64,000 nucleotides of DNA, from assembly GCA_025057115.1 (NCBI GenBank), contig JANWWZ010000003.1, positions 241,025-305,024 of the forward strand, written 5' to 3'. The stretch is from Bernardetiaceae bacterium (GTDB lineage: Bacteria > Bacteroidota > Bacteroidia > Cytophagales > Thermoflexibacteraceae). This document shows, piece by piece, positions 8,369 to 62,831 of this stretch. Within the stretch, counting starts at the first letter, position 1; every line of letters starts with the position of its first letter. The notes under the pieces were generated by a model, which was not told where the DNA came from, ran no database searches, and worked only from the letters and a program-made list of their open reading frames with translations. Both the position numbers and the translations under genes were made by a program.

Positions 8369-8423
8369 AAGGAGAGAGCTCTGATGATTGCTCAAGTAAT
8401 AAAAAAAGTTATTAAAAAACAAT

Positions 8424-22568: not shown

Positions 22569-22692
22569 GGGTGGTACTAAATTAATCCAGGTGTAATATA
22601 CCAAATTTTTAGGCAATGCAATTGAGCAAAAGCCCTTGCTAGTAACAAACATTCACTTAAATTGTCAGTTGTACACGGTGAGGATAAAGTGC

Positions 22693-35276: not shown

Positions 35277-35456
35277 GAAGTAAGGCAAGGCTGAAGCTTT
35301 CATTGGTGAGTTAAAAAATGCTTTGCTTTTTTGCCAAGTAAATTTGCTTGATTCTCTCTTGCTGACGAGTTTGCAGTGAAATGACAGTAACATTTACCAG
35401 ATGCATCAAAACTGTTTTCTTTTTGTACATAAGTAGCAAACGCTGCTTTTTTGTCT

Positions 35457-35464
35457 TATATTTG
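35457..35464 (+). promoter_or_regulatory. Candidate -7 promoter box (TATATTTG)
   Basis: TAnnTTTG match inside the ORF-track 5' extension, 43 nt upstream of the TTG at 35508. Confidence 0.3.
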
Positions 35465-35507
35465 TCGGAGATACTTCTTTAGGTTTAGTGTAACACAAGG
35501 TAAGGAA

Positions 35508-45855: not shown

Positions 45856-45950
45856 TCTTTTTGCCAAAACGGGGCGCAAGTTACGCATTTATGCCTAATT
45901 TCGCGGCGCAAAACTCTTCTCTACAGATAGGACTATTTTTTAAAATTGTC

Positions 45951-50230: not shown

Positions 50231-50266
50231 AAAAAAGCCCTAGTAGTACTAGGGCTAAGTTTTTTG
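50231..50266. terminator. Strong bidirectional rho-independent terminator
   Basis: AAAAAA-AGCCCTAG-TAGTA-CTAGGGCT-AAGTTTTTT. Perfect 8-bp stem (50236-50243 / 50249-50256) flanked by A- and T-runs, between convergent genes. Confidence 0.8.
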
Positions 50267-50275
50267 CTCAAAGCG

Positions 50276-50707
50276 TTACCGCTTAAAACCTAGAACTGCT
50301 GCTCCACAGTAGCTTTCTGAGTCTTTAAACGAAAACAAGATGTAGTAAATACCTGTTGAGCGGCAGCGATAGGTCCAACCAGGGTAAGATTTGCCGTTTA
50401 AGTTGTTTGTAGTAAGCTCCTGCCGCTGGTTATCCAGCAGTGTAGCCACAATGCCTTTCGCACCACCATCTTTGCCTTCAATTCTAAGCATGTAGTTGGT
50501 GTCTTTACTGAATACGCAAGTGTATTCAATGTTTTTTCGCGCACCGTTTTTGCCGTCTATCTTATAGCTTTTGACAAAAGTGTAACCTTGTTGTAGTGCC
50601 TTTAGCGCTTTTTGGCTATATACTTCGGCATCACATTGAGCGACAGCCTTAGTAGAGAAAAGCGCCAAAGATAACAGCACTACTAGTGGGGTCAGTACAG
50701 CTCGCAT
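50276..50707 (-). CDS. Small secreted protein of unknown function (4 Cys)
   Basis: Signal peptide MRAVLTPLVVLLSLALFSTKAVAQ. Last gene of the co-oriented cluster, 19 nt after the upstream gene. Confidence 0.55.
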   Translation of the reverse strand: MRAVLTPLVVLLSLALFSTKAVAQCDAEVYSQKALKALQQGYTFVKSYKIDGKNGARKNIEYTCVFSKDTNYMLRIEGKDGGAKGIVATLLDNQRQELTTNNLNGKSYPGWTYRCRSTGIYYILFSFKDSESYCGAAVLGFKR

Positions 50708-50726: not shown

Positions 50727-51653
50727 TTAAACCTTTACAATTTTGTTTCGAATAGACTTTATCAGGCTGGCAATTGTCTGCACGTCAGTGTCATCGATAA
50801 TGACAGTACTTATTGTGTTATCTTCGGTGATAATTTCTCCATTAACTACCTTTTGCGTAGGCTTGCCAACAGTAGTTTTGATTTGTACTTTGCTATATAC
50901 TTTGCTCAATTCCTTCAAATCAGCAATGAGAGTGGCAAAGTTAGGCTTTGTTTTGTAAATATCTAAGATAGTCAAAATTTGGTCTAAAGCAATTTTTTGC
51001 TCACCGATGCGCTCTTTTAGCTCTTGGTTGTTGGTTTTTTGGTACACTAAAGTAGTCAAATAGAGCGCTTCCACCCAACCACCTGTTAGAATGAGGATAG
51101 TGAGGTTTTCCCTTTTCTGTTCATTGAGATGGTTGTGAATTTTTTCCAAATTTTGCTGAGTAAGTTGGAGTAGTTGCTCTACATTGCCACTGGTAGAAGC
51201 GAGTTCTTTGATGGTTTTGTAATCAAAGTACTGACCAATTCCTAAGTTGTCGGCTAGTTTTTTAACTGCGTTGAGATAATTAAGCACATCTTGATTTTTG
51301 TCGTACAAATTGGCAAATCCCAAATCCGTACTATAAACGCCTAAGTTAAGTGCTTGGCTGTAGTTAGTGCTATAACTTGCCGCTAGGTTGGGATCGTTTA
51401 GGTTAGATACGTTATAAGGTGCCCCTATCGCTTTGATCAGATAGGAAGTTTCGATAGGAGAGGGGATAGATTGCATGATGTTAGCCACTAAATCATCAGA
51501 AATTTGTGGCAATTGGTTATCCTCTGAAACCTCTTTGCTTCCTTTTGGACTTAATGATGAATCGACCTTATTATTACCTTGTTCATTTTCAGGTGAATTG
51601 GCACTGCATGCGAGCACAAGAATAAGGGCAAATGATACATATAGCCTTTTCAT
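50727..51653 (-). CDS. Lipoprotein of unknown function (predominantly helical)
   Basis: Start moved to MKRLYVSFALILVLACSANS (lipobox). No recognisable domain. Confidence 0.6.
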   Translation of the reverse strand: MKRLYVSFALILVLACSANSPENEQGNNKVDSSLSPKGSKEVSEDNQLPQISDDLVANIMQSIPSPIETSYLIKAIGAPYNVSNLNDPNLAASYSTNYSQALNLGVYSTDLGFANLYDKNQDVLNYLNAVKKLADNLGIGQYFDYKTIKELASTSGNVEQLLQLTQQNLEKIHNHLNEQKRENLTILILTGGWVEALYLTTLVYQKTNNQELKERIGEQKIALDQILTILDIYKTKPNFATLIADLKELSKVYSKVQIKTTVGKPTQKVVNGEIITEDNTISTVIIDDTDVQTIASLIKSIRNKIVKV

Positions 51654-51754
51654 AATCCAAATAAGCCTGTTATTTGTTACAATTCTTTCCACTGTTATCT
51701 GCATTTTAGTTTAATCAAAAAGAAAGCCAAAGTTTGAAGTATGATCCCGAAAGG

Positions 51755-54700
51755 TCATTTGCGCGCTAACTCTAGCTTGCTAAATAGCTTGACAAACTTT
51801 CTTAGCCATTCAAAGTAGAGTGCAACATATAGCACTACAGTCATCAGCCAAATAACCAGCAGGTTGAAATAATAAGTACTCATAAAGTGCCCTGCAAAAT
51901 GTTTGACAGGAGCGAAAAAGTGAGTACGATAATCCCACCACCCTTCTGGTTCTGGCAGATGGAAAACAGGGTCAGTGTTTTGAATAATGCGGTTGCCCTC
52001 TATGAAAGTTTTGTCTAGAACATTTTCATTTTTAACGAATTCTGCTAGCTGTTCGTTGTGGTAAAGGTCTTTGAGGCGATTAATAGTTAGAGCGATATTA
52101 TTTTTCTTGGCACTTTCCTCAAAGGCTATGATAACGGAGTCGCGTTTATCAGCCATTTGAGCTTGAATTTGCCCATAAAATACATTTAATTGCCGATTAT
52201 AAGCTCTAACTTGCTCGGCAGCCTGCTCATCAAAAGTTGCAGGATTGAGCAAAGCAATAGTTTGTTCTTTGCCAGGCAGGTTTACTTTATCTCTTTTCAG
52301 TTCGTTGGCTATAGTGGCAAGATAGGTTCTCTTTTGCTGCTGTTCGGAGGGAATTTTACTGTTGCCAATTTCCGCTGCCAATGTTAGTAATTCGTCTATT
52401 TTAGGCAACCAAAAAGAAGTTTTGTAATTGGCAGCGCTCTCCTGCTGGTCTATTTGGAAAAACATCCTTTCATAAGGATTGGTTTTAAATTGCTCTACGC
52501 AAATAGCTTCGTAAGCCCAGCGAGAAGCCCATATGTCGGTAATAAGTGGAGTTTTACCTTTGGCTGCAATGGCATTGTTGAGTTTATCAAAGCTAAAGAT
52601 GCCGCCGCTGAGTATCATTTGCGGTATCAGCAACAAGGGAATGAGCACATATACCGTTACGGCATTATCAAAGGCAGAGGAAATATTCAGTCCTAATACA
52701 TTGGCAAAACAGGAAACGGTAAACAACATAAGCCAGTAAGTAATATACTGTTCCTGTACGCCTAAAATGAGGTTGCCTATGACCACAAAAGAAAGAGTTT
52801 GGATGGCAGAAAGGCTAAACAAAATAATGAGTTTAGAGAACAAGTAGCTAGTGCGGCTTAAATTGAGAAAAGATTCTCTTTTTAAAATTTTGCGGTCGCT
52901 GATGATTTCCTCTGCACTTACAGTAAGCCCCATGAAAAGGGCGATGATAATGCAAATGAGAATGTATGCAGGAATGTTGTCGTTATATCGGAATACGTAC
53001 TGCCCTTTGCCAAGACTGTCTTTATAGCGAATCACCAGCGACATAAGCAGGGCAAGGGCTGGTGCTTCAATTAAATTAACTGTGAGGTATTGTTTATTGC
53101 TAATTTTAGCTAAAGCGTCTCGCGTAGCAAATATGAGCGTTTGCTTGATGCGCGAAGGGATATTGAGGTTTTTCGGGGGTTTTTCGCGTACTTCTTCTAC
53201 TCTGTCTAACTTGAAGTTGGCTTGAAACATTTCATGCCATTCCTCTGGGGTAATTTTTCGTTTATTGGTAAACTCCCCGTACTCATCCACTACGCGAGCT
53301 TCGATGATGTTAAAAATTTGTTCTGGATTGACATTGCCACAGGTCATGCATTGACCGCGCTCACTGCCCACTTGCCGAGTAGCCCTCTTAAAGTAAGTAA
53401 TAGCTTCGATGGGGTTGCCGTAAAAGACAGGGTAGCCTCCTGTGTCAAGGATATACATTTTGTCGAACATTTTGTAAATGTCCGAGGAGGGCTGGTGAAT
53501 GACGGCAAAGATGAGTTTTCCTTTTAGAGAAAGCTCCTTGAGCAGGTCTATGACATTTTCTGAGTCGCGGGAGGAGAGCCCTGAAGTAGGTTCGTCCAAA
53601 AACAGTATTGCTGGTTCGCGAATTAATTCCAAAGCTATGTTGAGGCGTTTGCGCTGTCCACCGCTAATTTTTTTGTTGAGCACGTTGCCCACTTTCAAGT
53701 GCATGATGCGGTCCAGCCCTAAGCTCTCCAACACTGATACTACTTTTGCTGTAATTTCCTCTTCAGAAAGGTCGCGAAAACAGAGTTTAGCGTTGTAGTA
53801 AAGGTTTTGAAAAACGGTCAGGTCTTCGATGAGCAAATCATCTTGGGAAACGTAGCCAATGACACCTTCTATGTTTTTTTTCTCTATAGGGTCATGAATA
53901 TTATATCCGTTGATGGTAACTTTTCCTTGAGAAGGCTTTTCAAGCCCTGCCATAACGTTGAGCAAAGTGGTTTTTCCAGCTCCACTTGCTCCCATGATGC
54001 CTATGAGCTTGCCAGGACCTTCTGAAATGTTAATATTCCGCAGTCCGATAGTGCCGTTGGGAAAGGTAAACCAGACAGAATCTACATTAAATGAAATGTT
54101 GCGTTTGACTTTGTCAGCCGTGTACTTGCTAACTAAATCGCTGTAGTAGAGCGGCGCTCCTTTAGGGGTTTTGATGATGCTGCCATTGGAAAAAAGTACG
54201 ATACTGTTGCGCTTTACTAACTGACCATTGAGATAAATTTCATCGTGTCCTGTGTATTTGATAAAATATAGGTCCACACTTTTGACGCGGATAAAAATAA
54301 TCTCTCCGTCTAGTTTACCGCTATCTATGTATCGCTTTTTGCTTCCTGGAGGGGGTGGTTCGTCGTCAAAGATTAAGATATCTTCCGAGTCCAGTGCAGA
54401 CGAATGCTCCTGCATGGCAAAGGACTCCATCAATTTGTATTCTTCTTTGGGAATATTGAAAACGGAGGCAACTGTTTGAATAATTTCCATGCGTTGTGCT
54501 GTAAAGCTGCGGTTCGCGCTAAGCATTTCCAGCAACTTAAACAACACAATCACTTTTTGTTTTTGAGTAAGGGTTTTATTAATGCGGCGACAAATGGAAA
54601 GCACCCGCACTGCTTCATTAACGCGGGTTACTCTTCTTTTGCGTTCCACTTTGGTGTCGCCTTCTTCGCTGTCTTCATCAATACCGTACTCTGAGTATTT

Positions 54701-54856
54701 ATCGTAAAGAGCAAGGTACTCTGCCATCGTTTCCGAGTCTAGGTCTTGCTGGTAGAAGCTGATGATAAAATTGCGTTCTGCTTCACTTACCCCCGTATCC
54801 TGCTTGGAAATGATGGCAAACAGTTGCGTTAGGGCTTTGAGTATCTCCTCACTCAT
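51755..54856 (-). CDS. Fused ABC transporter (ABCG/ABC-2 type ATPase + permease) with N-terminal regulatory region and long C-terminal extension
   Basis: Walker A GIMGASGAGKTT, signature ISGGQRKR, Walker B ILFLDEPTSGLS. Six TM helices follow the NBD. About 290 aa precede the NBD (a helical TerB/DjlA-N-like segment plus a beta-rich FHA-like segment, ...YLNGQLV...). About 250 aa of helical tail end in a seventh TM (YYFNLLVIWLMTVVLYVALYF). Confidence 0.85.
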   Translation of the reverse strand: MSEEILKALTQLFAIISKQDTGVSEAERNFIISFYQQDLDSETMAEYLALYDKYSEYGIDEDSEEGDTKVERKRRVTRVNEAVRVLSICRRINKTLTQKQKVIVLFKLLEMLSANRSFTAQRMEIIQTVASVFNIPKEEYKLMESFAMQEHSSALDSEDILIFDDEPPPPGSKKRYIDSGKLDGEIIFIRVKSVDLYFIKYTGHDEIYLNGQLVKRNSIVLFSNGSIIKTPKGAPLYYSDLVSKYTADKVKRNISFNVDSVWFTFPNGTIGLRNINISEGPGKLIGIMGASGAGKTTLLNVMAGLEKPSQGKVTINGYNIHDPIEKKNIEGVIGYVSQDDLLIEDLTVFQNLYYNAKLCFRDLSEEEITAKVVSVLESLGLDRIMHLKVGNVLNKKISGGQRKRLNIALELIREPAILFLDEPTSGLSSRDSENVIDLLKELSLKGKLIFAVIHQPSSDIYKMFDKMYILDTGGYPVFYGNPIEAITYFKRATRQVGSERGQCMTCGNVNPEQIFNIIEARVVDEYGEFTNKRKITPEEWHEMFQANFKLDRVEEVREKPPKNLNIPSRIKQTLIFATRDALAKISNKQYLTVNLIEAPALALLMSLVIRYKDSLGKGQYVFRYNDNIPAYILICIIIALFMGLTVSAEEIISDRKILKRESFLNLSRTSYLFSKLIILFSLSAIQTLSFVVIGNLILGVQEQYITYWLMLFTVSCFANVLGLNISSAFDNAVTVYVLIPLLLIPQMILSGGIFSFDKLNNAIAAKGKTPLITDIWASRWAYEAICVEQFKTNPYERMFFQIDQQESAANYKTSFWLPKIDELLTLAAEIGNSKIPSEQQQKRTYLATIANELKRDKVNLPGKEQTIALLNPATFDEQAAEQVRAYNRQLNVFYGQIQAQMADKRDSVIIAFEESAKKNNIALTINRLKDLYHNEQLAEFVKNENVLDKTFIEGNRIIQNTDPVFHLPEPEGWWDYRTHFFAPVKHFAGHFMSTYYFNLLVIWLMTVVLYVALYFEWLRKFVKLFSKLELARK

Positions 54857-54885
54857 AGGTGCTGGTAGTCAGCTTTTGGACACAA

Positions 54886-54935
54886 GTAAAGAAAAACTGC
54901 AAAGCCTTGTTATGTTTGTTTTACAGACCTTGCAG
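54886..54935 (-). terminator. Hairpin plus U-tract between the siaC-like gene and the ABC transporter gene (terminator or attenuator)
   Basis: On the minus-strand RNA, CUGCAAGGUC...GGCUUUGCAG forms a 10-bp stem with 2 G-U pairs (54926-54935 / 54897-54906). It is followed by UUUUUCUUU. Confidence 0.45.
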
Positions 54936-54944
54936 TAAATAAAG

Positions 54945-55319
54945 TTAGTAAGATTTAAATTCAAAGGGCACGGTTTCAACCAGTTCGGAAAATTCTTCTC
55001 CTGCTTCCTCCATGTCCTCGTCATCTTCGTGGTAATACCACACTACGCGCGAGCCCGGAATATTGTCTAACTTGGAAAGAATATCCAGTATCAACTTTGA
55101 AGAAGCAGTATTAAAATACTCCAGTTTAAAGCGGAAGATAGTTTCTGGATTAGGCGCAGCCTGATAGCGGTCGAGCCATTCCAAAATAGGCGCATAAAAT
55201 TCCGCTGCATCTTCGGGTAGGGAGCGCCCCGAGATTTCAAAAATTCCCCTTTCTTTATCTAAGATAATCTTAGGGGTATCTTCAGTTCCTTCTAAGTTGA
55301 TTACTTCCATTGTAGCCAT
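54945..55319 (-). CDS. DUF1987 / SiaC-like regulatory phosphoprotein
   Basis: 124 aa. GTEDTPKIILDKERGIFEISGRSLPEDAAEFYAPILEWL...FKLEYFNTASSKLILDIL is the DUF1987 signature. The candidate phospho-acceptor Thr71 is encoded at 55107-55109. Confidence 0.8.
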   Translation of the reverse strand: MATMEVINLEGTEDTPKIILDKERGIFEISGRSLPEDAAEFYAPILEWLDRYQAAPNPETIFRFKLEYFNTASSKLILDILSKLDNIPGSRVVWYYHEDDEDMEEAGEEFSELVETVPFEFKSY

Positions 55320-55867
55320 CAGCTCTGTGTTCTTGAAATGGTTGCTCTAAGTGAAAAAAAAGATAGTTTATCATTAATGGGCTCAAAATCATAACGCAAT
55401 TTATGACCTGATTTGCGCGCCATGTCAATAAACCCTAAGCCTGCTCCTCCTTTAGCAGAAAGTTCGCCGTGCTTGATTACTTCCTTATAGAGTTCTTTTA
55501 AACCCTCTTTGTCCAAACTGTTGATGTGTTCCAAGCGTCTGGTAATTTCTTCTACCTTTTCTTTGGGAACAGCATTGCCCGAAGTAATCACATATTCATT
55601 GTTATGCTTGCCTATCATAAAAATAGCACTGTTTTTTCCGTAGTTTTCCGTATCATAGGCTTCTGCATGCTTGCAGATGTTTTGCAAGCACTCTACCATG
55701 ACATTGAACACCTTGCGTTTGACGGCGGCTTCCTCGCCAAAGGCATCCATGTTTCGCTCAGCCATGGCCAGCACTGACTTGGTAATTTCCTGCGTAAACT
55801 CGCCCTCATACACCAAAATCAGGTTTTGCCTGAGCATAATCCTATGTAGGTCATATATGTATTTCAT
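55319..55867 (-). CDS. SiaB-like (RsbW/HATPase-type) serine/threonine protein kinase
   Basis: 182 aa. ...MVECLQNICKHAE...GGAGLGFIDMARKSG.... Its stop TGA overlaps the siaC-like ATG (ATGA at 55317-55321). Confidence 0.75.
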   Translation of the reverse strand: MKYIYDLHRIMLRQNLILVYEGEFTQEITKSVLAMAERNMDAFGEEAAVKRKVFNVMVECLQNICKHAEAYDTENYGKNSAIFMIGKHNNEYVITSGNAVPKEKVEEITRRLEHINSLDKEGLKELYKEVIKHGELSAKGGAGLGFIDMARKSGHKLRYDFEPINDKLSFFSLRATISRTQS

Positions 55868-55975
55868 TTGGTAAGCAAGCCATTGTTGTCCTTAAAACGA
55901 TAAAAGAACTAAAAAAGTATATTTCATCTGCAGGGGCTAATTTAGCACTTTTTAGCAATTTCATAGTAGCTGTTT

Positions 55976-58900
55976 TCAAAATTTAATGCCGATGAGCAAT
56001 ATATCGTCGGTTTGTGCATAGCCGTTGCGCCATTGTTCGAATGCGCGGTCAAAGATAGTCCGTATTTCGGTCATGGGCTTATGGTAGTGATTGGCAATAA
56101 GTTCTCGGATTTGCCGAGGGGAAAATTTTTTGTTGTCAGGTCCGCCAAACTGATCAGCAAGTCCATCGGAGGAAAGGTAAATAGAATCCCCTCTAGCAAG
56201 GCATAATTCATGGGTAGTAAAACCTTTGCGATTGCGAATTTGCCCTCCTCCGATGGGAAACTTATCTCCCTTGATCACCTTCAACTCTCCTCTAAGGACG
56301 CAATAAAGAGGACGATGCGCTCCCGCATATTGTACTTTTCCTGTATTGAGATTGATCTTACACAAGGCAATATCCATTCCATCACGGGTAGTGGCATTGA
56401 TGTCTTGTCTTAATGTGCGCGTTACTCCTTCATTGAGCAGGTCTAAAATTTGCCCCACTTCTGATACATTGCGGCTATTGACCACGTCATTAAGAATAAA
56501 GTAACCTATTAGCGAAATAAGAGCTCCTGGAACCCCGTGCCCTGTGCAATCTACCGCTGCTACATACACCTCGTTGCCTTTTTGTAAAAACCATGGAAAA
56601 TCCCCACTTACTACATCGCGTGGACGATAGTATATGAATGAATCAGGGAAAACTTTTTGGATAGTAGTAGTGTCAGGCAGGATAGCGCTTTGAATCCTTT
56701 TGGCATAGTTGATACTTTCGGTAATCTTGCGGTTGATGGAAAGAATTTCCATTTCCGCTTCTTTGTTCTCGGTAATGTCATGAGATACAATAAGCACCGA
56801 TTCAATTTCTCTATTTTCGTTCTGCTCTGGAATGGCATTGACTTGCATGATGCGCTTTCCTAAGAGAGAGGGGAAAGGCATTTCAGTTTTAATAATTTTA
56901 TTAGCCACAATGGCATCGCGGAGCAAGTGAGCCCATTGGCGAACAATTTCTTCCTCAATGCCAGTTTCTTGGATGCGTTTACCTAGCAGTTCGGCGGGTG
57001 TTTTTCCCGTGTAAGTAGTAATGACAGGATTGATGTAAAAGATGATTCCTTCAGGATTAATACGGGTGATCAAGTCGGGAGAGTTTTCCGAAAGAGATTG
57101 CATTTGTCCGCGCATGCGCGCTTCGCGTTCTGCTAAGCGGCGTTCGGTAATATCTCGGTAGTTTACTACAATTCCTTGAATAGCGGGGTCGGAAAGTAAG
57201 TTATTGCCTGTAGCTTCCAGCCAAATTGCCTCACCATTTTTGCGCAGGTATTCAAACTGTACCATTACTTTTTCTTCAGGTTCTTCTAGCAAGTCGCGGA
57301 ACATCTGGCGGGCAATGTGTACGCTATTGGGATGGACATAAATAATATCATTAATCCCTATCATTTCATCGGGCGTATAGCCCAAAATGGATTCTACCGA
57401 AGGACTGATATATCGTATCCGCCCATCTGCTTCATAAATGGTAATGACTTCGGAAGCGTTTTCTAGCAACAACTGCATGCGTTTTTGGGAGCGGTTCACC
57501 TCTTGGATTTGGTCTTCTAGTTGAGCATTGATGCGCCGCAACTCCTCCTGAGTAGCTTCCATAATAATAGCGTTCTCCCGCAAGATTTTTTCGCGTGCTT
57601 GAAGCTCTCGACTCATTTGTTGGGCTTCCGTCAGCAAGCGTAAGGTGCGCTCATTAACTCGTATGTTAAAAATAGTGCGGGCAATAATAGTGCTCACTTC
57701 TTCCACAAAATGGATATACAGGGGAGTAAATCGGTCAAAGCCTGCTAGTTCCACTACCCCGTAAACGGTTTCATTAGCAATGAGCGGCACCAGTAGAAGG
57801 CAGTCGGGTTTGCGGTCTCCTAAAATGCCAGAGGAAATGGTAACATAATGGAAAGGTATTTCAGTGCGCAAAATAGTATCTTTTTCAATGGCTGCTTGCC
57901 CTACCAGTCCTTCTCCTAGGCGGAAGGAATTTTTGATATATTTTCTTCTGCCGTAAGCGTAAGCAGCTAGTAGTTCAAGCAGAATAGAACCATCGGCTTG
58001 TTCGTTAGCCACGTAAATGGCTCCTTGAACGGCTTGGATTCTATAGGTGAGGTAAGCAATTACTTCATAGCTGACTTCTTGCAAATCATTAGAGGAACGC
58101 AAAATTTGTCCTATTTCTGCTACCCCTGAAACGATCCAGTTGCGTTCTTCGTCGCGTTGTTCAGCCCGTCGGATGTTATCGCGCATGGTGAGGAGTGCAT
58201 TGCCTAGCACGTCGTTGGCGCTAGCGGGCTCAAATTCCACATCGTATTTTCCTTCTCCTATTAGGCGAGCAAAGTGGACATTTTTGCGTTGTGTTTCTAC
58301 TAGTTCTTGCACGGCAAGAGCCATTTCCCCAATTTCATCATTGCTTTTGATAGTAATTTTTTCAGGCAATACACCTTGGGCTACCAAACTGAGGCTTGTT
58401 TTGAGAAACTGCAAGGGAGCTACCAAGTAATGGGAGAATATCAAAGAAACTGCAAACGCTACCAGTAAGATAAAAACAGCGGCAAAAAGAAATGACAACA
58501 GCAGCCTATCGAGTTCACTATTAAGCTCATCGAGATCTATTTTTACTACCAGTCCCCATTCTACGCGCGGCAAATATCGCCAAATGGCATATGTTTTTTT
58601 GTCGCGGTAGTCTTGCATGATGCCGAAGCCTGCTTCTCCTATGGCTGCTAGGTAGGTGGGGTCAGGGTTGATTTCATCTACAATAGTGGATTGAGTAAGC
58701 AAAGGAAAAGAAGAAAGGCGGGGTTGGTTGATGTAATCTAGTTTATTGCCAACAAGCTTGGTAAGGATGATTTCGCCAGTTTTGCCCAATCCTATAGTGT
58801 CATTGGTGAAATGGTAAACCTTGGCCATGTCGAACTCTGCTACTAGATGACCTATCAGTTGTTCGTCTAAGCCGAAGACGGGAATGGCTACATTGAGCAA

Positions 58901-59410
58901 GGCGCGCTTTTCCGACACTTTATTAATGGAACCGTAATAAATTTTTTTACTGGCGTAGAGTTTTATTTGGTCGTAGTCAGGAAAATTTTCACCTACTAGT
59001 AAATTATCAAGGTTTTTGTTGGTCTTGTAAACAATTAAACCGTTTTTGTTGACTAGCAAAATGTTGTTATAGCCGTAAATTTCTTGGATAGGCACCAAGT
59101 AGTCGTTGAGGCGGCGTTCTATGTTGAAATATGCACTGTCCACATTGCTGACCATATTTGCTAAGGAGAGGCTTTGTAAAACTCTGCTAGAGTTTTGTAT
59201 CATGTGCAGGTTGTGCTCCAGCTGTTCAAACATATCATTGAGCTGAGAGCTGACCACTGAGCTTTTTAAGTTGAGGGTTCGCAAGAAACTCTCTTCAAAG
59301 GCATCTTTGCCAAAGCGATAAGAAAGAAAGGTAACTGAAAAAATAACAATAGTAACTACTCCTAACAGCAATATTGATATTTTGCTTCCTATCCTAACTT
59401 CGCTGAACAT
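55976..59410 (-). CDS. Membrane sensor PP2C (SpoIIE-type) phosphatase: TM-Cache-like-TM-HAMP-GAF-coiled coil-PAS-PAS-PP2C (SiaA-like)
   Basis: 1144 aa. Two TM helices flank a periplasmic domain of about 270 aa. The HAMP region is APLQFLKTSLSLVAQG...NDEIGEMALAVQEL and the GAF region is GEGLVGQAAIE...VVELAGF. There are two PAS domains (ITIYEADGRIRYISPSVESILGY; ITRINPEGIIFYINP). The PP2C motifs are SGDFPWF, AAVDCTGHGVPGAL, SDGLADQ and TDDILLIGIKF. Confidence 0.85.
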   Translation of the reverse strand: MFSEVRIGSKISILLLGVVTIVIFSVTFLSYRFGKDAFEESFLRTLNLKSSVVSSQLNDMFEQLEHNLHMIQNSSRVLQSLSLANMVSNVDSAYFNIERRLNDYLVPIQEIYGYNNILLVNKNGLIVYKTNKNLDNLLVGENFPDYDQIKLYASKKIYYGSINKVSEKRALLNVAIPVFGLDEQLIGHLVAEFDMAKVYHFTNDTIGLGKTGEIILTKLVGNKLDYINQPRLSSFPLLTQSTIVDEINPDPTYLAAIGEAGFGIMQDYRDKKTYAIWRYLPRVEWGLVVKIDLDELNSELDRLLLSFLFAAVFILLVAFAVSLIFSHYLVAPLQFLKTSLSLVAQGVLPEKITIKSNDEIGEMALAVQELVETQRKNVHFARLIGEGKYDVEFEPASANDVLGNALLTMRDNIRRAEQRDEERNWIVSGVAEIGQILRSSNDLQEVSYEVIAYLTYRIQAVQGAIYVANEQADGSILLELLAAYAYGRRKYIKNSFRLGEGLVGQAAIEKDTILRTEIPFHYVTISSGILGDRKPDCLLLVPLIANETVYGVVELAGFDRFTPLYIHFVEEVSTIIARTIFNIRVNERTLRLLTEAQQMSRELQAREKILRENAIIMEATQEELRRINAQLEDQIQEVNRSQKRMQLLLENASEVITIYEADGRIRYISPSVESILGYTPDEMIGINDIIYVHPNSVHIARQMFRDLLEEPEEKVMVQFEYLRKNGEAIWLEATGNNLLSDPAIQGIVVNYRDITERRLAEREARMRGQMQSLSENSPDLITRINPEGIIFYINPVITTYTGKTPAELLGKRIQETGIEEEIVRQWAHLLRDAIVANKIIKTEMPFPSLLGKRIMQVNAIPEQNENREIESVLIVSHDITENKEAEMEILSINRKITESINYAKRIQSAILPDTTTIQKVFPDSFIYYRPRDVVSGDFPWFLQKGNEVYVAAVDCTGHGVPGALISLIGYFILNDVVNSRNVSEVGQILDLLNEGVTRTLRQDINATTRDGMDIALCKINLNTGKVQYAGAHRPLYCVLRGELKVIKGDKFPIGGGQIRNRKGFTTHELCLARGDSIYLSSDGLADQFGGPDNKKFSPRQIRELIANHYHKPMTEIRTIFDRAFEQWRNGYAQTDDILLIGIKF

Positions 59411-59429: not shown

Positions 59430-60266
59430 TTAGATGTGGGCAGTGCCTTTCAACTGCATTGCACTTGTTTTAAACAAAGGAACAGACAAATCTATAGTTT
59501 TCTGAAGGTTTTCTAAAAAATTATTGCTCACTTGTCGGAAAAAACCAAGCTCAAGGATACCTATTACTTGCTGATTTTCCACTACTGGCATACAAACAAG
59601 TCTAGCAGGAGAAGCATTTCCCAAGCCACTTTTTACAGGCAAATACTCTTTGGGCACTGTATGAACACACAAAAGCTTACCACTTTTGGCTACTTGTCCT
59701 ACAAAGCCTTCCCCATAAGCAAAAGGCTCAATAGCAAGAGGTTCACTAAGGGCATAGCCTGCTACAGCCTGAACAGTTTCCGATGCCTGGTTGCATAGGT
59801 AGCAAACCCCTACTACTGCTTCCGTTGCATTGCACACCTGCCGCAAAAAAGTTTCTAAGAGTGCATGGATATCATGAGTGGATGTAGAATTTTTTACCAG
59901 TGCAGTAATATTATCCGACAGTTGTTTGATGATATGTTCATCAGAATGAAAGGAAGTTTGGTGTTGTTCTGGGAGGTTGTTTTCCTTTTTTTGTACCTGC
60001 TCCACGTAAATGACATTCGTTGCCCTCAGGCGACTCATGTAAATTGCCATAACAATAACTAAAAAAAGAGCAAGGAAGAATTCGGCAGCTACATAAGTAA
60101 AAATTTTTTGCACAATGGCACTGATCTCTGCCAATTGCTGAGAGGGGCTATGTTGGGACAACAGTACATCATCGATCTGTTGAGGTACTAAATAACCAAT
60201 GTAGTATAGCAAGTAGAGCAAACCAGCTGCAAAACTTAAAACACTAATAGTTAAAAAAGCTCTCAT
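59430..60266 (-). CDS. Two-TM membrane protein with cytoplasmic GAF domain only
   Basis: TM helices at aa 4-26 and 56-78. GAF core GEGFVGQVAKSGK...CMPVVENQQVIGILELGFF. No output domain. Confidence 0.7.
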   Translation of the reverse strand: MRAFLTISVLSFAAGLLYLLYYIGYLVPQQIDDVLLSQHSPSQQLAEISAIVQKIFTYVAAEFFLALFLVIVMAIYMSRLRATNVIYVEQVQKKENNLPEQHQTSFHSDEHIIKQLSDNITALVKNSTSTHDIHALLETFLRQVCNATEAVVGVCYLCNQASETVQAVAGYALSEPLAIEPFAYGEGFVGQVAKSGKLLCVHTVPKEYLPVKSGLGNASPARLVCMPVVENQQVIGILELGFFRQVSNNFLENLQKTIDLSVPLFKTSAMQLKGTAHI

Positions 60267-60281
60267 AGGAATTGGGTAGTT

Positions 60282-60893
60282 TTAGGGCAATGCCATTTTG
60301 CAAGCACGGTCAAGTTCGGATAAAAATTCTATAATTCCATCTACTTTCAAAACCAGATCTACCTCTGTTTGAGCCAAAGCCGCACTAGGCATAGTGCTGA
60401 TGGTGCTTTCTTCAGGGTCTTGAACTATTGTCAGGCCGCCTTTTTGTTTGATGCGCATCATGCCATATGCTCCGTCTTTGTTAGCTCCAGAAAGCAAGAT
60501 TCCCACTAACTTATCGCGATACACGTAAGCAGCCGTTTCAAAGGTGTAGTCTATGCAAGGTCGTGAATTATTTTCCATCTCTTCGGTGGAAAGTGCAATG
60601 CTATTGCCTAATTCTATAGACATGTGGTAATTGGCAGGGGCAAGGTATATATACCCTCGCTTAATGGGTTCTTTGTCGCAAGGCTCTACTACGGGTTTGG
60701 AGCTTTTTACCGAAAGTGCCTCTACAAATCCATGCCGTACATGTTTAAGCCGATGCAAGCACAAAAACATAGGTAATGGGAAATCTTTAGGTAACTCTGA
60801 AAGAATTCGAGTAATCACTTGAAAACTTCCTGCAGAACCTCCCACTACTACTGCTTTGTATTTCCCGCTTACTTTGTACTTGTTAAATATCAT
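60282..60893 (-). CDS. CheB-like protein-glutamate methylesterase, catalytic domain only (no receiver domain)
   Basis: 203 aa. The catalytic-triad context is conserved (VVGGSAGS, HRLKH, LSGANKDG), and the protein starts directly at the catalytic domain. Confidence 0.8.
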   Translation of the reverse strand: MIFNKYKVSGKYKAVVVGGSAGSFQVITRILSELPKDFPLPMFLCLHRLKHVRHGFVEALSVKSSKPVVEPCDKEPIKRGYIYLAPANYHMSIELGNSIALSTEEMENNSRPCIDYTFETAAYVYRDKLVGILLSGANKDGAYGMMRIKQKGGLTIVQDPEESTISTMPSAALAQTEVDLVLKVDGIIEFLSELDRACKMALP

Positions 60894-60912: not shown

Positions 60913-61761
60913 TCAATCCTTTATTTTTTTGTAAATTTTTTCTTCGTTATTGACGACAATAAATTTGTTAGCAATGTCGCACCAAATCAGGGACTCTTTA
61001 GAGCCAATAGCCAAGTAGCCGTATTTAAACAAACTTTCGTGCAACTTAGCAAGGACCGCATTTTGCAAATTTTGGTTGAAGTAAATCATTACATTGCGGC
61101 ACAGGACGAGGTCAAACTTGGAAAATACTGGACCTTGCACTAGGTCATGTTTGCGATAGGTCACGTTTTGCAATAAAGATTTATCAAATACAGCCTCTTG
61201 CCCTACATCGCGGAAATACTTTCGAAGATTAGGCGGAGGAGCTCCTTCTACTCCAAAAGCAGCTTGGTAATTTTTTTGATTTAGTTCCATATTCTTCTGC
61301 GCAATAGTTGCTGTTTTAGCCTTATTGATAATGGCAGTATCTATATCGGTAGCTGTAATTTTAGCCTTGTCCAAAAATCCCATTTCATACAAGAGAATTA
61401 CCATCGAAAGGACTTCCTCCCCTGAAGAACAGCCTGCATGCCAAATGCTTATCCGGTCATGGTTCATGATGATATTGGGAATAATCTGCTCCTTAAGCAC
61501 GCGCCAAAAAGTGGGATCGCGGAACATTTCAGTTACATTGACCGTGATTTCTGAAATGAACTCCTCAAAAAAGGAAGGCGTAGTATCCAACACCTGAATG
61601 AGTTTATCTACTGTCTTGAACTTGTATAATTCAATCACTCGTTTAATTCGCCTTCGAAAAGACGACATGGCATAATCTCTGAAATCGTAGCCATATTTGT
61701 CTTTGATTAGCTCTGTCAATCGCCGGATGTCAGCTATTTCTATATCCAGTTCGGTGGACAT
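60913..61761 (-). CDS. CheR-like protein-glutamate O-methyltransferase
   Basis: 282 aa. CheR N-terminal helical domain (LIKDKYGYDFRDY) plus the SAM-binding block IWHAGCSSGEEVLS. Confidence 0.85.
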   Translation of the reverse strand: MSTELDIEIADIRRLTELIKDKYGYDFRDYAMSSFRRRIKRVIELYKFKTVDKLIQVLDTTPSFFEEFISEITVNVTEMFRDPTFWRVLKEQIIPNIIMNHDRISIWHAGCSSGEEVLSMVILLYEMGFLDKAKITATDIDTAIINKAKTATIAQKNMELNQKNYQAAFGVEGAPPPNLRKYFRDVGQEAVFDKSLLQNVTYRKHDLVQGPVFSKFDLVLCRNVMIYFNQNLQNAVLAKLHESLFKYGYLAIGSKESLIWCDIANKFIVVNNEEKIYKKIKD

Positions 61762-61826: not shown

Positions 61827-62831
61827 TTACCTTGTTTGCTTGAATGCAGGTCTGGGTTTTAAGTTAAGGTGTTGAAATAAAGCTTTGTCGGCATCTATTT
61901 CAGGATTAGGAGTAGTGAGGAGCTTATCTCCGGCAAAAATGGAATTGGCTCCTGCCATAAAACACAAGGCTTGCTCTGGCTCGGTCATGTTGATTCTGCC
62001 AGCGGAGAGGCGTACCATGGCTCGGGGCATGAGAATGCGAGCTGTGGCTATCATGCGCACCATATCCCATACAGAAACTCTTGGTTGATTAGCCAGAGGA
62101 GTACCTTCTATAGGCACCAGTGCATTCACTGGCACGGATTCGGGATGTTCGGGCAAAGTAGCTAAGGTATGCAGCAGGCTAATGCGGTCTTCGTGGCTTT
62201 CTCCCATGCCAATAATCCCTCCTGAGCAAACTGAAATTTTTGCCTTTCTTACGTTTTCTATTGTCTGCAATCTATCCTGATAGGTGTGAGTGGTAACAAT
62301 ATGGTCGTAGTAACTTTGGCTAGTGTCTAAATTGTGATTGTAGGCATATAAGCCTGCCTGGCTAAGCCGCTCTGCTTGTTGGGCAGTAAGCATACCTAAC
62401 GTACAGCACACTTCCATGCCCATTGCCGTTATTGCTTTGACCATTTCTATGATTTTGTCAAAGTCGCGATTGTTGCGCACTTGACGCCAAGCAGCTCCCA
62501 TGCAAAACCGCGTGCTGCCATTGGCTTTTGCCTGCTGAGCATATGCCAGTACCGTGTCTATATCAAGCAATTTATGAGCTTGTACAGGGGTATGATAGCG
62601 CGCTGCCTGAGAACAATAGGCGCAGTCCTCTGGGCAACCTCCAGTTTTTACAGAGAGCAACGTACAAATTTGTATCTCTTGCGGGTCGTGGTAGAGCCGG
62701 TGCACGGTAGCAGCCATGTACACCAGTTCTAGCAAAGGCATGTGATAAATTTGGCCAACTTGTTCAACAGTCCAATCGTGGCGGATGATGCCCACTTGAC
62801 AGGGCAAGGTAGTAGTGTTGGGTATGTTCAT
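61827..62831 (-). CDS. bioB: Biotin synthase
   Basis: Radical-SAM motif [10 protein letters not shown] and a typical BioB length and sequence ([12 protein letters not shown]). Confidence 0.92.

What the first reader, a model, noticed from the sequence alone, without database searches (positions are those of the whole stretch)
51755..59410. Sia-type partner-switching module (PP2C sensor, kinase, DUF1987 phosphoprotein) with no diguanylate cyclase, next to an ABC transporter
Three consecutive minus-strand genes match the SiaA/SiaB/SiaC logic described for the Pseudomonas aeruginosa SiaABCD system.
- 55976-59410 encodes a large membrane sensor ending in a SpoIIE/PP2C phosphatase.
- 55319-55867 encodes a small RsbW/HATPase-type kinase.
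- 54945-55319 encodes a DUF1987 protein with a Thr in the conserved YFNTxSS block (Thr71).

The kinase and DUF1987 genes overlap by ATGA, which suggests translational coupling. In the Pseudomonas system the unphosphorylated DUF1987 protein activates the diguanylate cyclase SiaD. No GGDEF, EAL or HD-GYP domain is present anywhere in this cluster or window.

The next co-oriented gene is instead a 1033-aa ABC transporter with about 290 aa of extra cytoplasmic N-terminal sequence. By inference, the phospho-switch output here is something other than c-di-GMP synthesis, and the ABC transporter N-terminal region is the obvious candidate binding partner. The sensor is also far more elaborate than the HAMP-PP2C of SiaA, carrying Cache-like, HAMP, GAF and two PAS domains.
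Basis: partly seen in the sequence, partly recalled or inferred. Interest (0 to 1): 0.75.

Follow-up and report, generated by a model that had tools for sequence, protein, structure and literature searches.

The report
Phospho-switch wired to an ABC exporter
A threonine phospho-switch known from Pseudomonas, where it turns on a c-di-GMP-making enzyme, is here part of a nine-gene operon conserved across Cytophagales bacteria in which its constant partner is a membrane exporter carrying two extra regulatory domains, so the switch most likely controls export rather than c-di-GMP synthesis.

Summary
Three minus-strand genes are SiaA-type PP2C sensor, SiaB-family kinase and SiaC phosphoprotein (Pfam, NCBIfam; best PDB hits are the P. 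aeruginosa proteins; catalytic residues and the phospho-Thr are kept). None of the 46 ORFs of at least 150 aa has GGDEF, EAL or HD-GYP.

Small corrections:
- The siaB/siaC overlap is 1 nt (TGATG), not ATGA.
- Thr71 is Thr68 if translation starts at Met4, as in most homologues.
- The ABC N-terminal extension is about 255 aa.

The unit is larger than reported. CheR, REC-less CheB, TM-GAF protein, SiaA, SiaB, SiaC, ABC, lipoprotein p325 and secreted p143 form a syntenic block. The ABC follows SiaC in 75 of 76 SiaC-centred genomes, and SiaC precedes the ABC in 66 of 70 ABC-centred metagenome loci. SiaC and ABC stay adjacent where SiaA/B are not nearby. No GGDEF occurs in 160 loci.

The ABC N-terminus folds as a TerB-like helical domain plus a non-canonical FHA-like domain, ahead of an ABCG-type core.

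Most likely SiaC, depending on its phospho-state, docks on this cytoplasmic module and gates export. That step is inferred, not shown. It is a new variant of a known kind. The substrate and the CheR/CheB target are unknown.

The parts
60913..61761 (-). CheR-type protein-glutamate methyltransferase, 282 aa, first gene of the conserved block
   Evidence: Pfam CheR_N + CheR (E 5.5e-42). Syntenic in 62 of 65 assessable SiaC-centred loci, median 64% identity.
60282..60893 (-). CheB methylesterase catalytic domain only, 203 aa, no receiver domain
   Evidence: Pfam CheB_methylest 15-190 of 203 aa (E 1.7e-49). NCBIfam aligns only to the C-terminal half of CheB models. Syntenic 64 of 67.
59430..60266 (-). 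Membrane protein with two TM helices and a GAF domain, 278 aa (GAFtm)
   Evidence: Pfam GAF_2 130-244. TM helices 3-21 and 59-77. Syntenic 64 of 67 but only about 30% identical.
55976..59410 (-). SiaA-type sensor phosphatase, 1144 aa: TM, periplasmic dCache, TM, HAMP, GAF, coiled coil, two PAS, PP2C
   Evidence: The periplasmic part is very divergent (mean distance 1.82), while the cytoplasmic part from HAMP onward is highly conserved.
55982..56575 (-). PP2C/SpoIIE catalytic domain of the sensor (residues 946-1143)
   Evidence: Pfam SpoIIE. 6k4e Pa SiaA-PP2C E 6.7e-35, with the metal-binding Asp motifs conserved.
55319..55867 (-). SiaB-family Ser/Thr kinase, 182 aa
   Evidence: DUF6272 E 1e-45. 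NF038262 186.9 bits, above the cut-off of 85. 6kko_A E 2.4e-18. Syntenic 72 of 72.
54945..55319 (-). SiaC-family phosphoprotein (124 aa from Met1, 121 aa from Met4); the most conserved protein of the block
   Evidence: PF09345 E 2e-40. Pa SiaC E 2.5e-13. 71-90% identity across Cytophagales. Mean distance 0.20, the lowest of 16 segments.
55107..55109 (-). Codon of Thr71 (Thr68 from Met4), predicted phospho-acceptor in the invariant block KLEYFNTASSK
   Evidence: Aligned with Pa SiaC Thr68. Invariant in 21 of 21 homologues. Codon read.
51755..54856 (-). TerB-like / FHA-like / ABCG-type fused exporter, 1033 aa
   Evidence: Syntenic after SiaC in 75 of 76 loci.
54413..54850 (-). TerB-like helical domain (residues 3-148) with a variable charged loop at 56-78 and a basic, near-invariant helix pair at 79-114
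   Evidence: AF2 pLDDT above 90 outside the loop. Pfam TerB E 8.2e-5, 23.3 bits against a cut-off of 24.4. PF05099 is precomputed on homologues. Invariant I92 N93 L96 Q100 K101. Net charge +5.
54119..54379 (-). FHA-like beta-sandwich (residues 160-246), non-canonical
   Evidence: The top-ranked Foldseek PDB hits are FHA domains, probability about 1.0, E 5e-3 to 5e-2. The family profile hits the MEK1 FHA at E 0.017. The canonical Arg/His/Asn positions are not conserved. Pfam FHA is not hit.
53357..54088 (-). ABC nucleotide-binding domain (residues 257-500)
   Evidence: Pfam ABC_tran 272-425, E 2.9e-32. Mean distance 0.22.
52592..53143 (-). ABC-2 type membrane domain, TM1-TM5 (residues 572-755)
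   Evidence: Pfam ABC2_membrane. Aligns with ABCG2 over NBD + TMD, residues 272-754, E 1.2e-38. TM helices.
51887..52591 (-). About 235-aa predicted periplasmic insert between TM5 and TM6 (residues 756-990), followed by TM6 at 991-1009
   Evidence: Hydropathy. No Pfam family. Poorly conserved: about 33% identity, mean distance 1.06. The topology is inferred from the ABCG layout.
50727..51704 (-). p325, predicted lipoprotein (likely start Met19 at 51650; lipobox LVLAC)
   Evidence: Sequence. Homologues are about 300 aa, unnamed, with no Pfam. AF2 helical bundle plus a small beta/alpha domain, pLDDT 80. No PDB fold match. Syntenic 64 of 65.
50276..50707 (-). p143, small protein with a signal peptide, no known family
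   Evidence: Syntenic 63 of 65 and 34 of 47 in the more divergent metagenome set.
50236..50256 (.). Nine-pair GC-rich hairpin followed by a T run on both strands; likely bidirectional terminator closing the block

Best explanation
This is a nine-gene signalling-and-export operon typical of Cytophagales:

cheR, cheB (no receiver domain), TM-GAF, siaA-like, siaB, siaC, TerB/FHA-like-ABCG exporter, lipoprotein p325, secreted p143.

**Core logic.** It is the Sia partner switch. The SiaB-family kinase phosphorylates SiaC on Thr71 (Thr68 from Met4). The PP2C domain of the large Cache/HAMP/GAF/PAS sensor removes the phosphate when the sensor is stimulated.

**Output.** It is not a diguanylate cyclase. 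SiaC docks, depending on its phosphorylation state, on the cytoplasmic N-terminal regulatory module of the ABCG-type exporter and switches transport on or off. I favour two details:
- The unphosphorylated form binds, as in Pseudomonas.
- It uses its invariant alpha2/acidic alpha3 face against the basic, near-invariant helices 79-114 of the TerB-like domain.

**Other parts.** The exporter probably works with p325 and p143 in the envelope, through its large periplasmic insert. CheR/CheB probably tune the sensor side by reversible glutamate methylation.

**Shown:** family membership, conserved catalytic and acceptor residues, operon layout, near-universal synteny, domain folds.

**Inferred:** phosphotransfer, SiaC-ABC binding, its polarity and docking site, the role of CheR/CheB, the substrate.
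For: 1. **All three Sia components are present with catalytic and acceptor residues kept**.
2. **The genes look like one operon.** Gaps between the nine genes from cheR to p143 are 15-108 nt or a 1-nt overlap, all on one strand (bioB lies 65 nt upstream of cheR), and a strong hairpin terminator follows p143.
3. **Synteny is near-universal.** The ABC N-terminal module lies directly downstream of SiaC in 75 of 76 genome loci. SiaC lies directly upstream of the ABC in 66 of 70 metagenome loci.
4. **Inputs vary but the SiaC-ABC pair persists.**
   - L112 has CheA-MCP-CheY and a short PP2C.
   - L097 and L163 have no SiaA/B nearby.
   - L132 and L158 have a divergently oriented SiaB-SiaC.
5. **No GGDEF** in the window or in the 160 loci.
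6. **SiaC is the slowest-evolving protein of the block.** Its mean distance is 0.20. Alpha2 and alpha3 are invariant, and these are the helices by which Pa SiaC grips SiaD (PMC8457831).
7. **The ABC N-terminus is a confidently folded two-domain module** (pLDDT 90). It is found only at the N-terminus of proteins of about 1000 aa. Its best-conserved segment is basic (+5), while SiaC alpha3 is -10.
8. **Precedents exist.** The STAS protein MlaB binds and controls the ABC ATPase MlaF, with a Thr at the interface (PMC7367683). The FHA-bearing ABC exporter Rv1747 is controlled by Ser/Thr phosphorylation (PMC3138270).
Against: - No direct test of binding was possible.
- No SiaC-ABC gene fusion was found among the four longest of the 150 listed relatives, the only ones inspected.
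- Rate covariation between SiaC and the ABC domains was nil after removing the shared phylogenetic signal.
- Gene adjacency shows functional linkage, not which protein touches which.
- The FHA-like domain lacks the canonical pThr-binding residues. The TerB-like assignment is just under Pfam's cut-off for this protein (23.3 against 24.4 bits).
- One locus (L054) has SiaB-SiaC alone among housekeeping genes.
- The SiaC-centred survey took the 80 closest relatives, so it samples orthologues within one order.
Confidence: 0.5

Rival explanations
1. Reverse polarity. The phosphorylated form of SiaC is the active ligand: pThr71 is read by the FHA-like domain of the exporter. Kinase activity would then switch export on and the PP2C sensor would switch it off.
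For: - An FHA-like fold sits between the TerB-like domain and the NBD. FHA domains are phosphothreonine readers.
- The FHA-ABC exporter Rv1747 is positively regulated by Thr phosphorylation (PMC3138270).
- Ser193, K/R200 and K/R229 are conserved and could form a non-canonical phosphate site.
Against: - The canonical Arg after the conserved Gly, the His of SxxH, and the peptide-contacting Asn are not conserved. The invariant N210-G211 aligns with the second NG of FHA domains. Pfam FHA is not matched.
- The FHA-like domain evolves twice as fast as the TerB-like domain (0.69 against 0.33).
- In SiaC the Thr caps a helix in a folded domain, not an extended peptide. In Pa SiaC and other STAS-type switches, phosphorylation breaks binding rather than making it (PMC8457831, PMC7367683).
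Confidence: 0.15
2. The exporter is linked to the switch but is not its direct target. Two forms are possible:
- The ABC/p325/p143 machine acts as a co-sensor or makes the signal that the Cache domain of SiaA reads (a flux-sensing or autocrine loop, as with Bce-type transporters).
- The genes are simply co-expressed, and SiaC acts on an unlinked target such as a cyclase, a sigma/anti-sigma pair or a motility component.
For: - Synteny alone cannot give the direction of information flow.
- The exporter has a large, fast-evolving periplasmic insert, like the sensor's Cache domain.
- In L054, SiaB-SiaC occur away from any ABC.
- No fusion or covariation signal ties SiaC to the ABC N-terminus.
Against: - SiaC and ABC stay adjacent even where SiaA, SiaB or the whole input set are not nearby (L097, L163, L112, L132, L158). 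That pattern fits an effector pair.
- The exporter carries a dedicated cytoplasmic regulatory module, as regulated transporters do.
- No alternative effector gene is conserved in the 160 loci.
Confidence: 0.2
3. SiaC regulates the methylation enzymes. The REC-less CheB (or CheR) is the partner of SiaC, so the phospho-switch replaces the missing CheB receiver domain and closes an adaptation loop. The exporter would be controlled in some other way.
For: - CheB lacks the receiver domain that normally controls it.
- CheR and CheB are syntenic in 62 of 65 and 64 of 67 loci and are well conserved.
Against: - CheR/CheB are absent from several loci that keep SiaC-ABC (L097, L112, L132, L158).
- No methyl-accepting domain or MCP methylation motif was found in the block.
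- Nothing positive links SiaC to CheB.
Confidence: 0.05

Closest known systems
SiaABCD of Pseudomonas aeruginosa (PMC7647112, PMC8457831)
   Same: - PP2C sensor phosphatase, SiaB kinase and DUF1987/SiaC phosphoprotein in the same gene order.
- The best PDB hits of all three are the Pseudomonas proteins.
- The Thr acceptor and catalytic residues are conserved.
   Different: - No SiaD or other GGDEF. The gene after siaC is a TerB/FHA-like-ABCG exporter.
- The sensor has Cache, GAF and two PAS domains in addition to HAMP-PP2C.
- CheR, CheB and a TM-GAF protein precede it; two envelope proteins follow.
- SiaC alpha3 is far more acidic.
MlaB-MlaF of the MlaFEDB phospholipid ABC transporter (PMC7367683, PMC5016091)
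   Same: - A small STAS-type protein binds and controls an ABC transporter.
- A conserved Thr sits at the interface, and a phosphomimetic change weakens binding.
   Different: - MlaB has no known kinase or phosphatase and binds the NBD directly.
- Here a dedicated kinase and phosphatase are encoded alongside.
- Here the transporter has extra N-terminal domains.
- SiaC is DUF1987, only structurally related to STAS according to the literature (not tested here).
Rv1747-PknF of Mycobacterium tuberculosis (PMC3138270, PMC5549992)
   Same: - An exporter with N-terminal FHA-type regulatory domains, encoded next to its Ser/Thr phospho-signalling partner (Rv1747 and pknF form an operon, PMC3138270).
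- Phosphorylation modulates transporter function.
   Different: - Rv1747 has two canonical pThr-binding FHA domains, and a Hanks kinase phosphorylates its own linker.
- Here there is one degenerate FHA-like domain plus a TerB-like domain.
- Here the phosphorylated species is a separate switch protein, handled by a GHKL-type kinase and a PP2C.
Partner-switching systems with non-sigma outputs (HptB-HsbR-HsbA/HsbD, BgrSTUWV; as summarised in PMC8457831)
   Same: PP2C plus anti-sigma-type kinase plus small phosphoprotein whose free form binds an effector.
   Different: In the examples summarised in PMC8457831 (HsbD, BgrR) the effector is a diguanylate cyclase. My literature searches found no described case with an ABC exporter as the conserved effector.
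Wsp-type chemosensory pathways for non-motility outputs (from my own knowledge)
   Same: CheR and CheB homologues accompany a membrane sensor that controls a non-flagellar output.
   Different: - No MCP signalling domain, CheA or CheW in the window.
- CheB has no receiver domain.
- Signal transmission is by Thr phosphorylation.
- A single metagenomic variant (L112) does combine CheA-MCP-CheY with PP2C-SiaB-SiaC-ABC.

Membership tests
Sia partner-switch (SiaABCD) | SiaA-type PP2C phosphatase with intact metal-binding aspartates | tested here: met
   SpoIIE E 5.6e-19. NF038263 matches only the C-terminal part of the model, 197.8 bits against an equivalog cut-off of 700. 6k4e E 6.7e-35, with the RDVVSGDF, VDCTGHG, SSDGL and QTDDI motifs kept.
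Sia partner-switch (SiaABCD) | SiaB-family kinase | tested here: met
   NF038262 186.9 bits, above the cut-off of 85. The strict SiaB equivalog scores 98.2, below its cut-off of 225. DUF6272 E 1e-45. 6kko_A E 2.4e-18.
Sia partner-switch (SiaABCD) | DUF1987/SiaC protein with Thr at the N-terminus of helix alpha2 | tested here: met
   PF09345 137.6 bits, above the cut-off of 24.5. The SiaC equivalog scores 77.7, below its cut-off of 150. Thr71 aligns with Pa Thr68 and is invariant in 21 homologues.
Sia partner-switch (SiaABCD) | Co-transcribed diguanylate cyclase SiaD as output | tested here: not met
   No GGDEF in the 46 window ORFs of at least 150 aa, in the six-frame window search, or in the 160 related loci.
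Sia partner-switch (SiaABCD) | Phosphotransfer from SiaB to SiaC Thr, and dephosphorylation by SiaA | not testable with these tools
   Needs in vitro kinase and phosphatase assays or phosphoproteomics.
FHA domain | FHA beta-sandwich fold | tested here: met
   AF2 pLDDT above 90 over residues 160-240. The top-ranked Foldseek hits are FHA domains, probability 0.9-1.0, TM (target) 0.4-0.55, E 5e-3 to 5e-2. The family profile hits the MEK1 FHA at E 0.017.
FHA domain | Sequence membership (Pfam FHA) and canonical pThr-binding residues (GR, SxxH, N) | tested here: not met
   None of the 24 members matches Pfam FHA, even at E up to 10. Of the canonical positions, only the Gly (G184, 45 of 53) and the Ser (S193, 51 of 53) are kept. 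The Arg, His and first Asn positions are variable or hydrophobic.
TerB (PF05099) | Match to the TerB profile | tested here: inconclusive
   The window protein scores 23.3 bits, E 8.2e-5, just under the cut-off of 24.4. Most homologues carry a precomputed PF05099 hit. The model is all-helical. The top-ranked PDB fold matches were to the FHA-like part; none clearly to the helical domain.
ABCG-type (ABC-2) exporter | NBD before TMD on one chain, ABC2_membrane TMD, similarity to ABCG proteins over both domains | tested here: met
   ABC_tran 272-425 and ABC2_membrane 572-759. TIGR00955 E 2.5e-74. ABCG2 E 1.2e-38 over residues 272-754. Five TM helices, an insert, then a sixth.
Chemotaxis-type methylation system | CheR methyltransferase and CheB methylesterase | tested here: met
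   CheR_N + CheR E 5.5e-42. CheB_methylest E 1.7e-49.
Chemotaxis-type methylation system | Methyl-accepting (MCPsignal) substrate, CheA/CheW, receiver domain on CheB | tested here: not met
   No such domain in the cluster or in any window ORF of at least 150 aa. CheB is the catalytic domain only. No MCP methylation consensus at conserved EE/QE pairs. Only the L112 variant has MCP, CheA and CheY.

The most novel reading that the evidence does not exclude
A sensory pathway of a kind not yet described. A methylation-tuned (CheR/CheB) transmembrane sensor would set the phosphorylation state of a STAS-like switch protein, which then gates an ABCG-type envelope exporter post-translationally. This would be chemotaxis-style adaptive signalling whose output is export, perhaps of a lipid or surface material tied to gliding or aggregation. 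It would be conserved across an entire bacterial order, and it would supply the phospho-regulated STAS-ABC mechanism that was only hypothesised for MlaB.
Probability: 0.25. Interest if true: 0.8.

Novelty: new variant of a known kind. Interest (0 to 1): 0.64.

Why it matters
**What it would show**
- How ABC transporters are switched on and off after translation is poorly understood (stated in PMC7367683). Phospho-control of a STAS-type accessory protein on an ABC transporter has been proposed but not demonstrated.
- This block offers a natural system in which kinase, phosphatase, switch protein and transporter are encoded together and conserved. At least 481 matching stretches were found in a collection holding one genome per species.
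- It would show that the Sia switch is a portable module not tied to c-di-GMP. The authors of the SiaC-SiaD structure suggested that DUF1987 proteins regulate adjacent proteins; this gives that idea a concrete second effector.

**Open questions**
- What do a REC-less CheB and a stand-alone CheR do in non-flagellated Bacteroidota?
- What does the exporter move?

Tried and rejected
1. **Modelling SiaC with the ABC N-terminus.** No multimer test was possible.
2. **Mirror-tree / rate covariation.** I compared 16 protein segments in 52 taxa. Raw correlations were 0.66-0.88 for every pair. After removing the common signal, residual correlations with SiaC were about zero for all partners. Uninformative.
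3. **Rosetta-stone search.** The longest relatives of the ABC N-terminal module (1059-1163 aa) have longer charged loops, periplasmic inserts or tails, not a fused SiaC.
4. **p325 function.** The AF2 model is acceptable (pLDDT 80), but the best Foldseek PDB hit has E 1.1. Pfam and NCBIfam found nothing for p325 or p143.
5. **CheR/CheB substrate.** No MCPsignal domain is present. The conserved EE/QE pairs in SiaA (EATQEEL), SiaC (DMEEAGEEF) and the ABC N-terminus (MSEEIL) do not fit the MCP methylation consensus.
6. **REC domain on the short PP2C of L112.** Rejected. Its N-terminal part matches only the helix preceding the PP2C domain in SiaA proteins and does not resemble the neighbouring CheY.
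7. **Promoter scans.** Sigma-70-type hits are at the chance level (25 found against 26.4 expected). The Bacteroidota -7 motif TAnnTTTG is not enriched (84 found against 69 ± 8 expected). Transcription starts were left undefined.
8. **Literature.** No paper in the library mentions DUF6272, PF19788, PF09345 or 'SiaC family'. The one paper that mentions DUF1987 is the P. aeruginosa SiaC-SiaD study. Searches for this gene combination in Bacteroidota found nothing.
9. **Chance adjacency of the ABC gene.** Rejected by the two surveys.

Full report
**1. The observation**

*Sensor (55976-59410, minus strand, 1144 aa).*
- Pfam finds dCache_1, HAMP, GAF, two PAS domains and a C-terminal SpoIIE/PP2C domain.
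- Two hydrophobic helices (11-29, 303-321) bracket the Cache domain, so it is periplasmic.

*Kinase (55319-55867).* It is DUF6272 (E 1e-45) and passes NCBIfam's SiaB-family cut-off, 186.9 bits against 85.

*Phosphoprotein (54945-55319).* It is PF09345 SiaC, E 2e-40.

*Relation to Pseudomonas.* The best solved-structure matches of all three are the P. aeruginosa proteins:
- SiaA-PP2C, 6k4e, E 6.7e-35
- SiaB, 6kko_A, E 2.4e-18
- SiaC, 6k4f/6kko_C, E 2.5e-13

The PP2C aspartate motifs, the kinase N-box Glu/Asn and the acceptor Thr all align. The residue roles come from PMC7647112.

*No c-di-GMP domains.* All 46 ORFs of at least 150 aa in the window were scanned against Pfam, and none carries GGDEF, EAL or HD-GYP. 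A six-frame motif and phmmer search agrees.

*Corrections.*
- siaB and siaC overlap by one base (TGATG), not ATGA.
- Most homologues begin at the residue equivalent to Met4. The acceptor would then be Thr68, the same number as in Pseudomonas.
- The ABC extension is about 255 aa.

**2. The unit is a nine-gene block**

Upstream and co-oriented, with gaps of 15-19 nt, lie three further genes:
- a CheR methyltransferase
- a CheB methylesterase consisting of the catalytic domain only
- a two-TM GAF protein

Downstream of the ABC lie a predicted lipoprotein (p325) and a small signal-peptide protein (p143). A nine-pair hairpin then reads as a terminator on both strands.

I fetched 80 genome loci centred on SiaC relatives. 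The scan found at least 481 stretches encoding a relative, and all named records are Cytophagales-type Bacteroidota. I located each window protein in them by tblastn. Among loci long enough to judge:

| Gene or segment | Syntenic / assessable |
|---|---|
| SiaB | 72 / 72 |
| PP2C | 68 / 70 |
| ABC N-terminal module | 75 / 76 |
| ABC core | 71 / 72 |
| p325 | 64 / 65 |
| p143 | 63 / 65 |
| CheR | 62 / 65 |
| CheB | 64 / 67 |
| TM-GAF | 64 / 67 |

bioB, upstream in the window, is syntenic only in the closest relative. The same order with Pfam labels is seen in a MAG labelled Ferruginibacter sp..

These 80 are the closest SiaC relatives, so this is a survey of orthologues.

**3. The reciprocal test and the variants**

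I fetched 80 metagenome loci centred on the ABC N-terminal module. SiaC lies directly upstream in 66 of 70 assessable cases. The four exceptions:
- L132 and L158 have a more divergent SiaB-SiaC pair (44% identity) transcribed divergently, right next to the ABC.
- L143 has SiaA-B-C 5 kb upstream.
- L154 has only 1.8 kb of flank.

The input side varies:
- L112, a single contig, has CheA, a porin-like protein, a genuine MCP, CheY, a 249-aa protein and a short PP2C ahead of SiaB-SiaC-ABC.
- L097 and L163 have SiaC-ABC with no SiaA/B within 8 kb.
- L054 has SiaB-SiaC alone among housekeeping genes.

The constant pair is therefore SiaC plus the exporter, usually with p325. No GGDEF domain occurs in any of the 160 loci. 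The only regex hits are the string AGEEF inside SiaC itself and a few chance strings in unrelated ORFs, and a phmmer search with a GGDEF domain found no homologue.

**4. The exporter**

*Core.* It is ABCG-type. It aligns with ABCG2 over both NBD and TMD (residues 272-754, E 1.2e-38) and with TIGR00955.

*Membrane layout.* Hydropathy gives five TM helices, an insert of about 235 aa, then a sixth helix. In the ABCG layout the insert is periplasmic. This is an inference.

*N-terminal module.* The first 268 residues were modelled with a 53-sequence alignment (pLDDT 90, pTM 0.84).
- Residues 3-148 are a helical domain with a disordered charged loop at 56-78.
- Residues 160-246 are a beta-sandwich.

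*Helical domain.* It matches Pfam TerB at E 8.2e-5, just under the gathering score. Most homologues carry a precomputed TerB hit.

*Beta domain.*
- Its best PDB fold matches are FHA domains: Rad53 FHA1, MEK1, CEP170, DgcB and EssC. Probabilities are near 1 but E-values are modest, 5e-3 to 5e-2.
- A family profile hits the MEK1 FHA at E 0.017.
- The invariant Asn210-Gly211 aligns with the second NG of FHA domains.
- The position matching the peptide-contacting Asn, the Arg after the conserved Gly184, and the His of SxxH are not conserved.
- Pfam FHA is not matched by any of 24 members.
- I therefore call it FHA-like and non-canonical. Whether it reads phosphothreonine is open.

*Distribution.* An exhaustive search of 1.84 billion representative proteins finds 639 relatives of the module (356 at E up to 1e-10). 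In the listed matches the aligned stretch begins at or within about 130 residues of the protein's N-terminus. Complete members are about 980-1160 aa. The module belongs to this transporter architecture.

**5. Conservation pattern**

Mean pairwise distances in 52 taxa:

| Segment | Mean distance |
|---|---|
| SiaC | 0.20 |
| NBD | 0.22 |
| TMD | 0.28 |
| CheB | 0.30 |
| TerB-like | 0.33 |
| CheR, PP2C | 0.34 |
| SiaB | 0.44 |
| FHA-like | 0.69 |
| ABC periplasmic / C-terminal region | 1.06 |
| TM-GAF | 1.45 |
| Sensor periplasmic domain | 1.82 |

- SiaC is the slowest-evolving protein of the block, as expected for a hub that must fit a phosphatase, a kinase and an effector.
- Its alpha2 (from Thr71) and alpha3 (HEDDEDMEEAGEEF, net -10) are invariant. 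These are the helices by which Pa SiaC clamps the SiaD stalk, with Thr68 inserted at the interface (PMC8457831).
- The best-conserved stretch of the ABC extension is the basic helix pair 79-114 (net +5; invariant I92, N93, L96, Q100, K101).
- This charge match is suggestive only.

**6. Mechanism**

*Shown.* The three enzymes and substrates of a Sia switch are intact. They sit in one operon-like block with the exporter. The SiaC-exporter pairing is nearly universal in both directions and survives changes of input. The exporter carries a dedicated cytoplasmic two-domain module.

*Inferred.* SiaB phosphorylates Thr71 and the sensor's PP2C reverses it on stimulation. One form of SiaC docks on the exporter's cytoplasmic module and changes transport. 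I favour the unphosphorylated form, by analogy with SiaC-SiaD and with MlaB-MlaF, where a phosphomimetic Thr52Glu weakens binding (PMC7367683).

*Rivals.*
- Phospho-SiaC is read by the FHA-like domain. The precedent is Rv1747, PMC3138270.
- The exporter acts as a co-sensor or signal source rather than as the target.
- SiaC controls the REC-less CheB.

I could not discriminate among these computationally.

**7. What stays unexplained**
- *The substrate of CheR/CheB.* There is no MCP signalling domain in the window, and no MCP methylation consensus at the conserved EE/QE pairs of SiaA, SiaC or the ABC. The single L112 variant with a real MCP, CheA and CheY hints at kinship with chemosensory arrays, but it is one contig.
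- *The transported substrate.*
- *The roles of p325 and p143.* p325 has an acceptable model (pLDDT 80) but no fold match. Neither protein has any family.

**8. Comparison and novelty**

The switch is a member of the Sia family by three of its four defining components. It fails the fourth, the SiaD cyclase.

The regulated-exporter side resembles two known systems:
- MlaB-MlaF, where a STAS protein acts on an ABC ATPase. Phosphorylation there is only hypothesised.
- Rv1747-PknF, an FHA-bearing ABC exporter under Ser/Thr phosphorylation.

Full-text searches found no paper on DUF6272, PF09345 or this gene combination in Bacteroidota. The SiaC-SiaD authors only suggested in general that DUF1987 proteins regulate adjacent proteins.

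I rate it a new variant of a known kind. The parts and the logic are known. Three things are new:
- the wiring (Sia switch to ABCG exporter)
- the TerB-like/FHA-like regulatory module
- the CheR/CheB accompaniment

The finding is solid as comparative genomics and open as mechanism.

Noticed in passing
L112:21-8004 (metagenome contig Ga0079224_100009167): A single variant locus in which CheA (HATPase_c + CheW), a porin-like protein, a true MCP (4HB_MCP + MCPsignal), CheY, a 249-aa unknown protein and a short 317-aa PP2C precede SiaB-SiaC, a 153-aa ORF and the TerB/FHA-like ABC. It is the only one of the 160 loci with this layout.
   Followed up: partly
L163:7539-7898 and L097:7592-7951: SiaC lies directly upstream of the ABC with no SiaA/SiaB within about 8 kb. 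In L163, a fragmented MAG, the SiaC acceptor block reads YYNPATAR instead of YFNTASSK, so the canonical Thr is replaced by Pro. This may be a non-phosphorylatable SiaC still paired with the exporter.
   Followed up: partly
window 54623-54691 (ABC residues 56-78): A low-confidence, highly charged loop lies inside the TerB-like domain. Its length varies between homologues; it is about 80 aa longer and K/R/E-rich in P0365.
   Followed up: partly
window 54993-55013 (SiaC residues 103-109): SiaC contains the invariant string MEEAGEEF. It matches loose GGDEF-motif regexes ([GAS]G[DE]EF) by chance and could mislead motif-only scans for cyclases.
   Followed up: yes
window 61827-62831 (-): A biotin synthase (Radical_SAM + BATS) gene sits 65 nt upstream of cheR on the same strand. 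It is syntenic only in the closest relative (L001), so it is not part of the conserved block.
   Followed up: yes
window 2957-8542 (-) and 8424-10643 (-): An 1861-aa bacterial alpha-2-macroglobulin lies next to a TPR-HisKA-HATPase sensor kinase. The listed ORFs overlap by about 120 nt, probably because the TTG start of the macroglobulin ORF is over-extended. A second TPR-HATPase_c sensor-kinase-like protein (no HisKA hit at the E-value used) is at 35451-37658 (+).
   Followed up: no
window 45861-46931 (+): Deoxyhypusine-synthase-family protein (Pfam DS, E 1.5e-39) in a bacterial genome, next to an Obg GTPase gene.
   Followed up: no
window 20031-22652 (-), 38392-39444 (-), 31474-32490 (-): An 873-aa protein with a T9SS C-terminal sorting domain and no other Pfam domain, a MORN-repeat protein, and a DHH/DHHA1 phosphoesterase. 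Together with 71-95% identity of the cluster proteins to Bernardetiaceae/Rhodoflexus records, these place the window in a Cytophagales genome.
   Followed up: no
L162:4855-8227: In one assembly the TerB/FHA-like module (294 aa) and the ABC core (840 aa) are called as two genes overlapping by 35 nt. This is either a frameshift error or a natural split of the regulatory module from the transporter.
   Followed up: no
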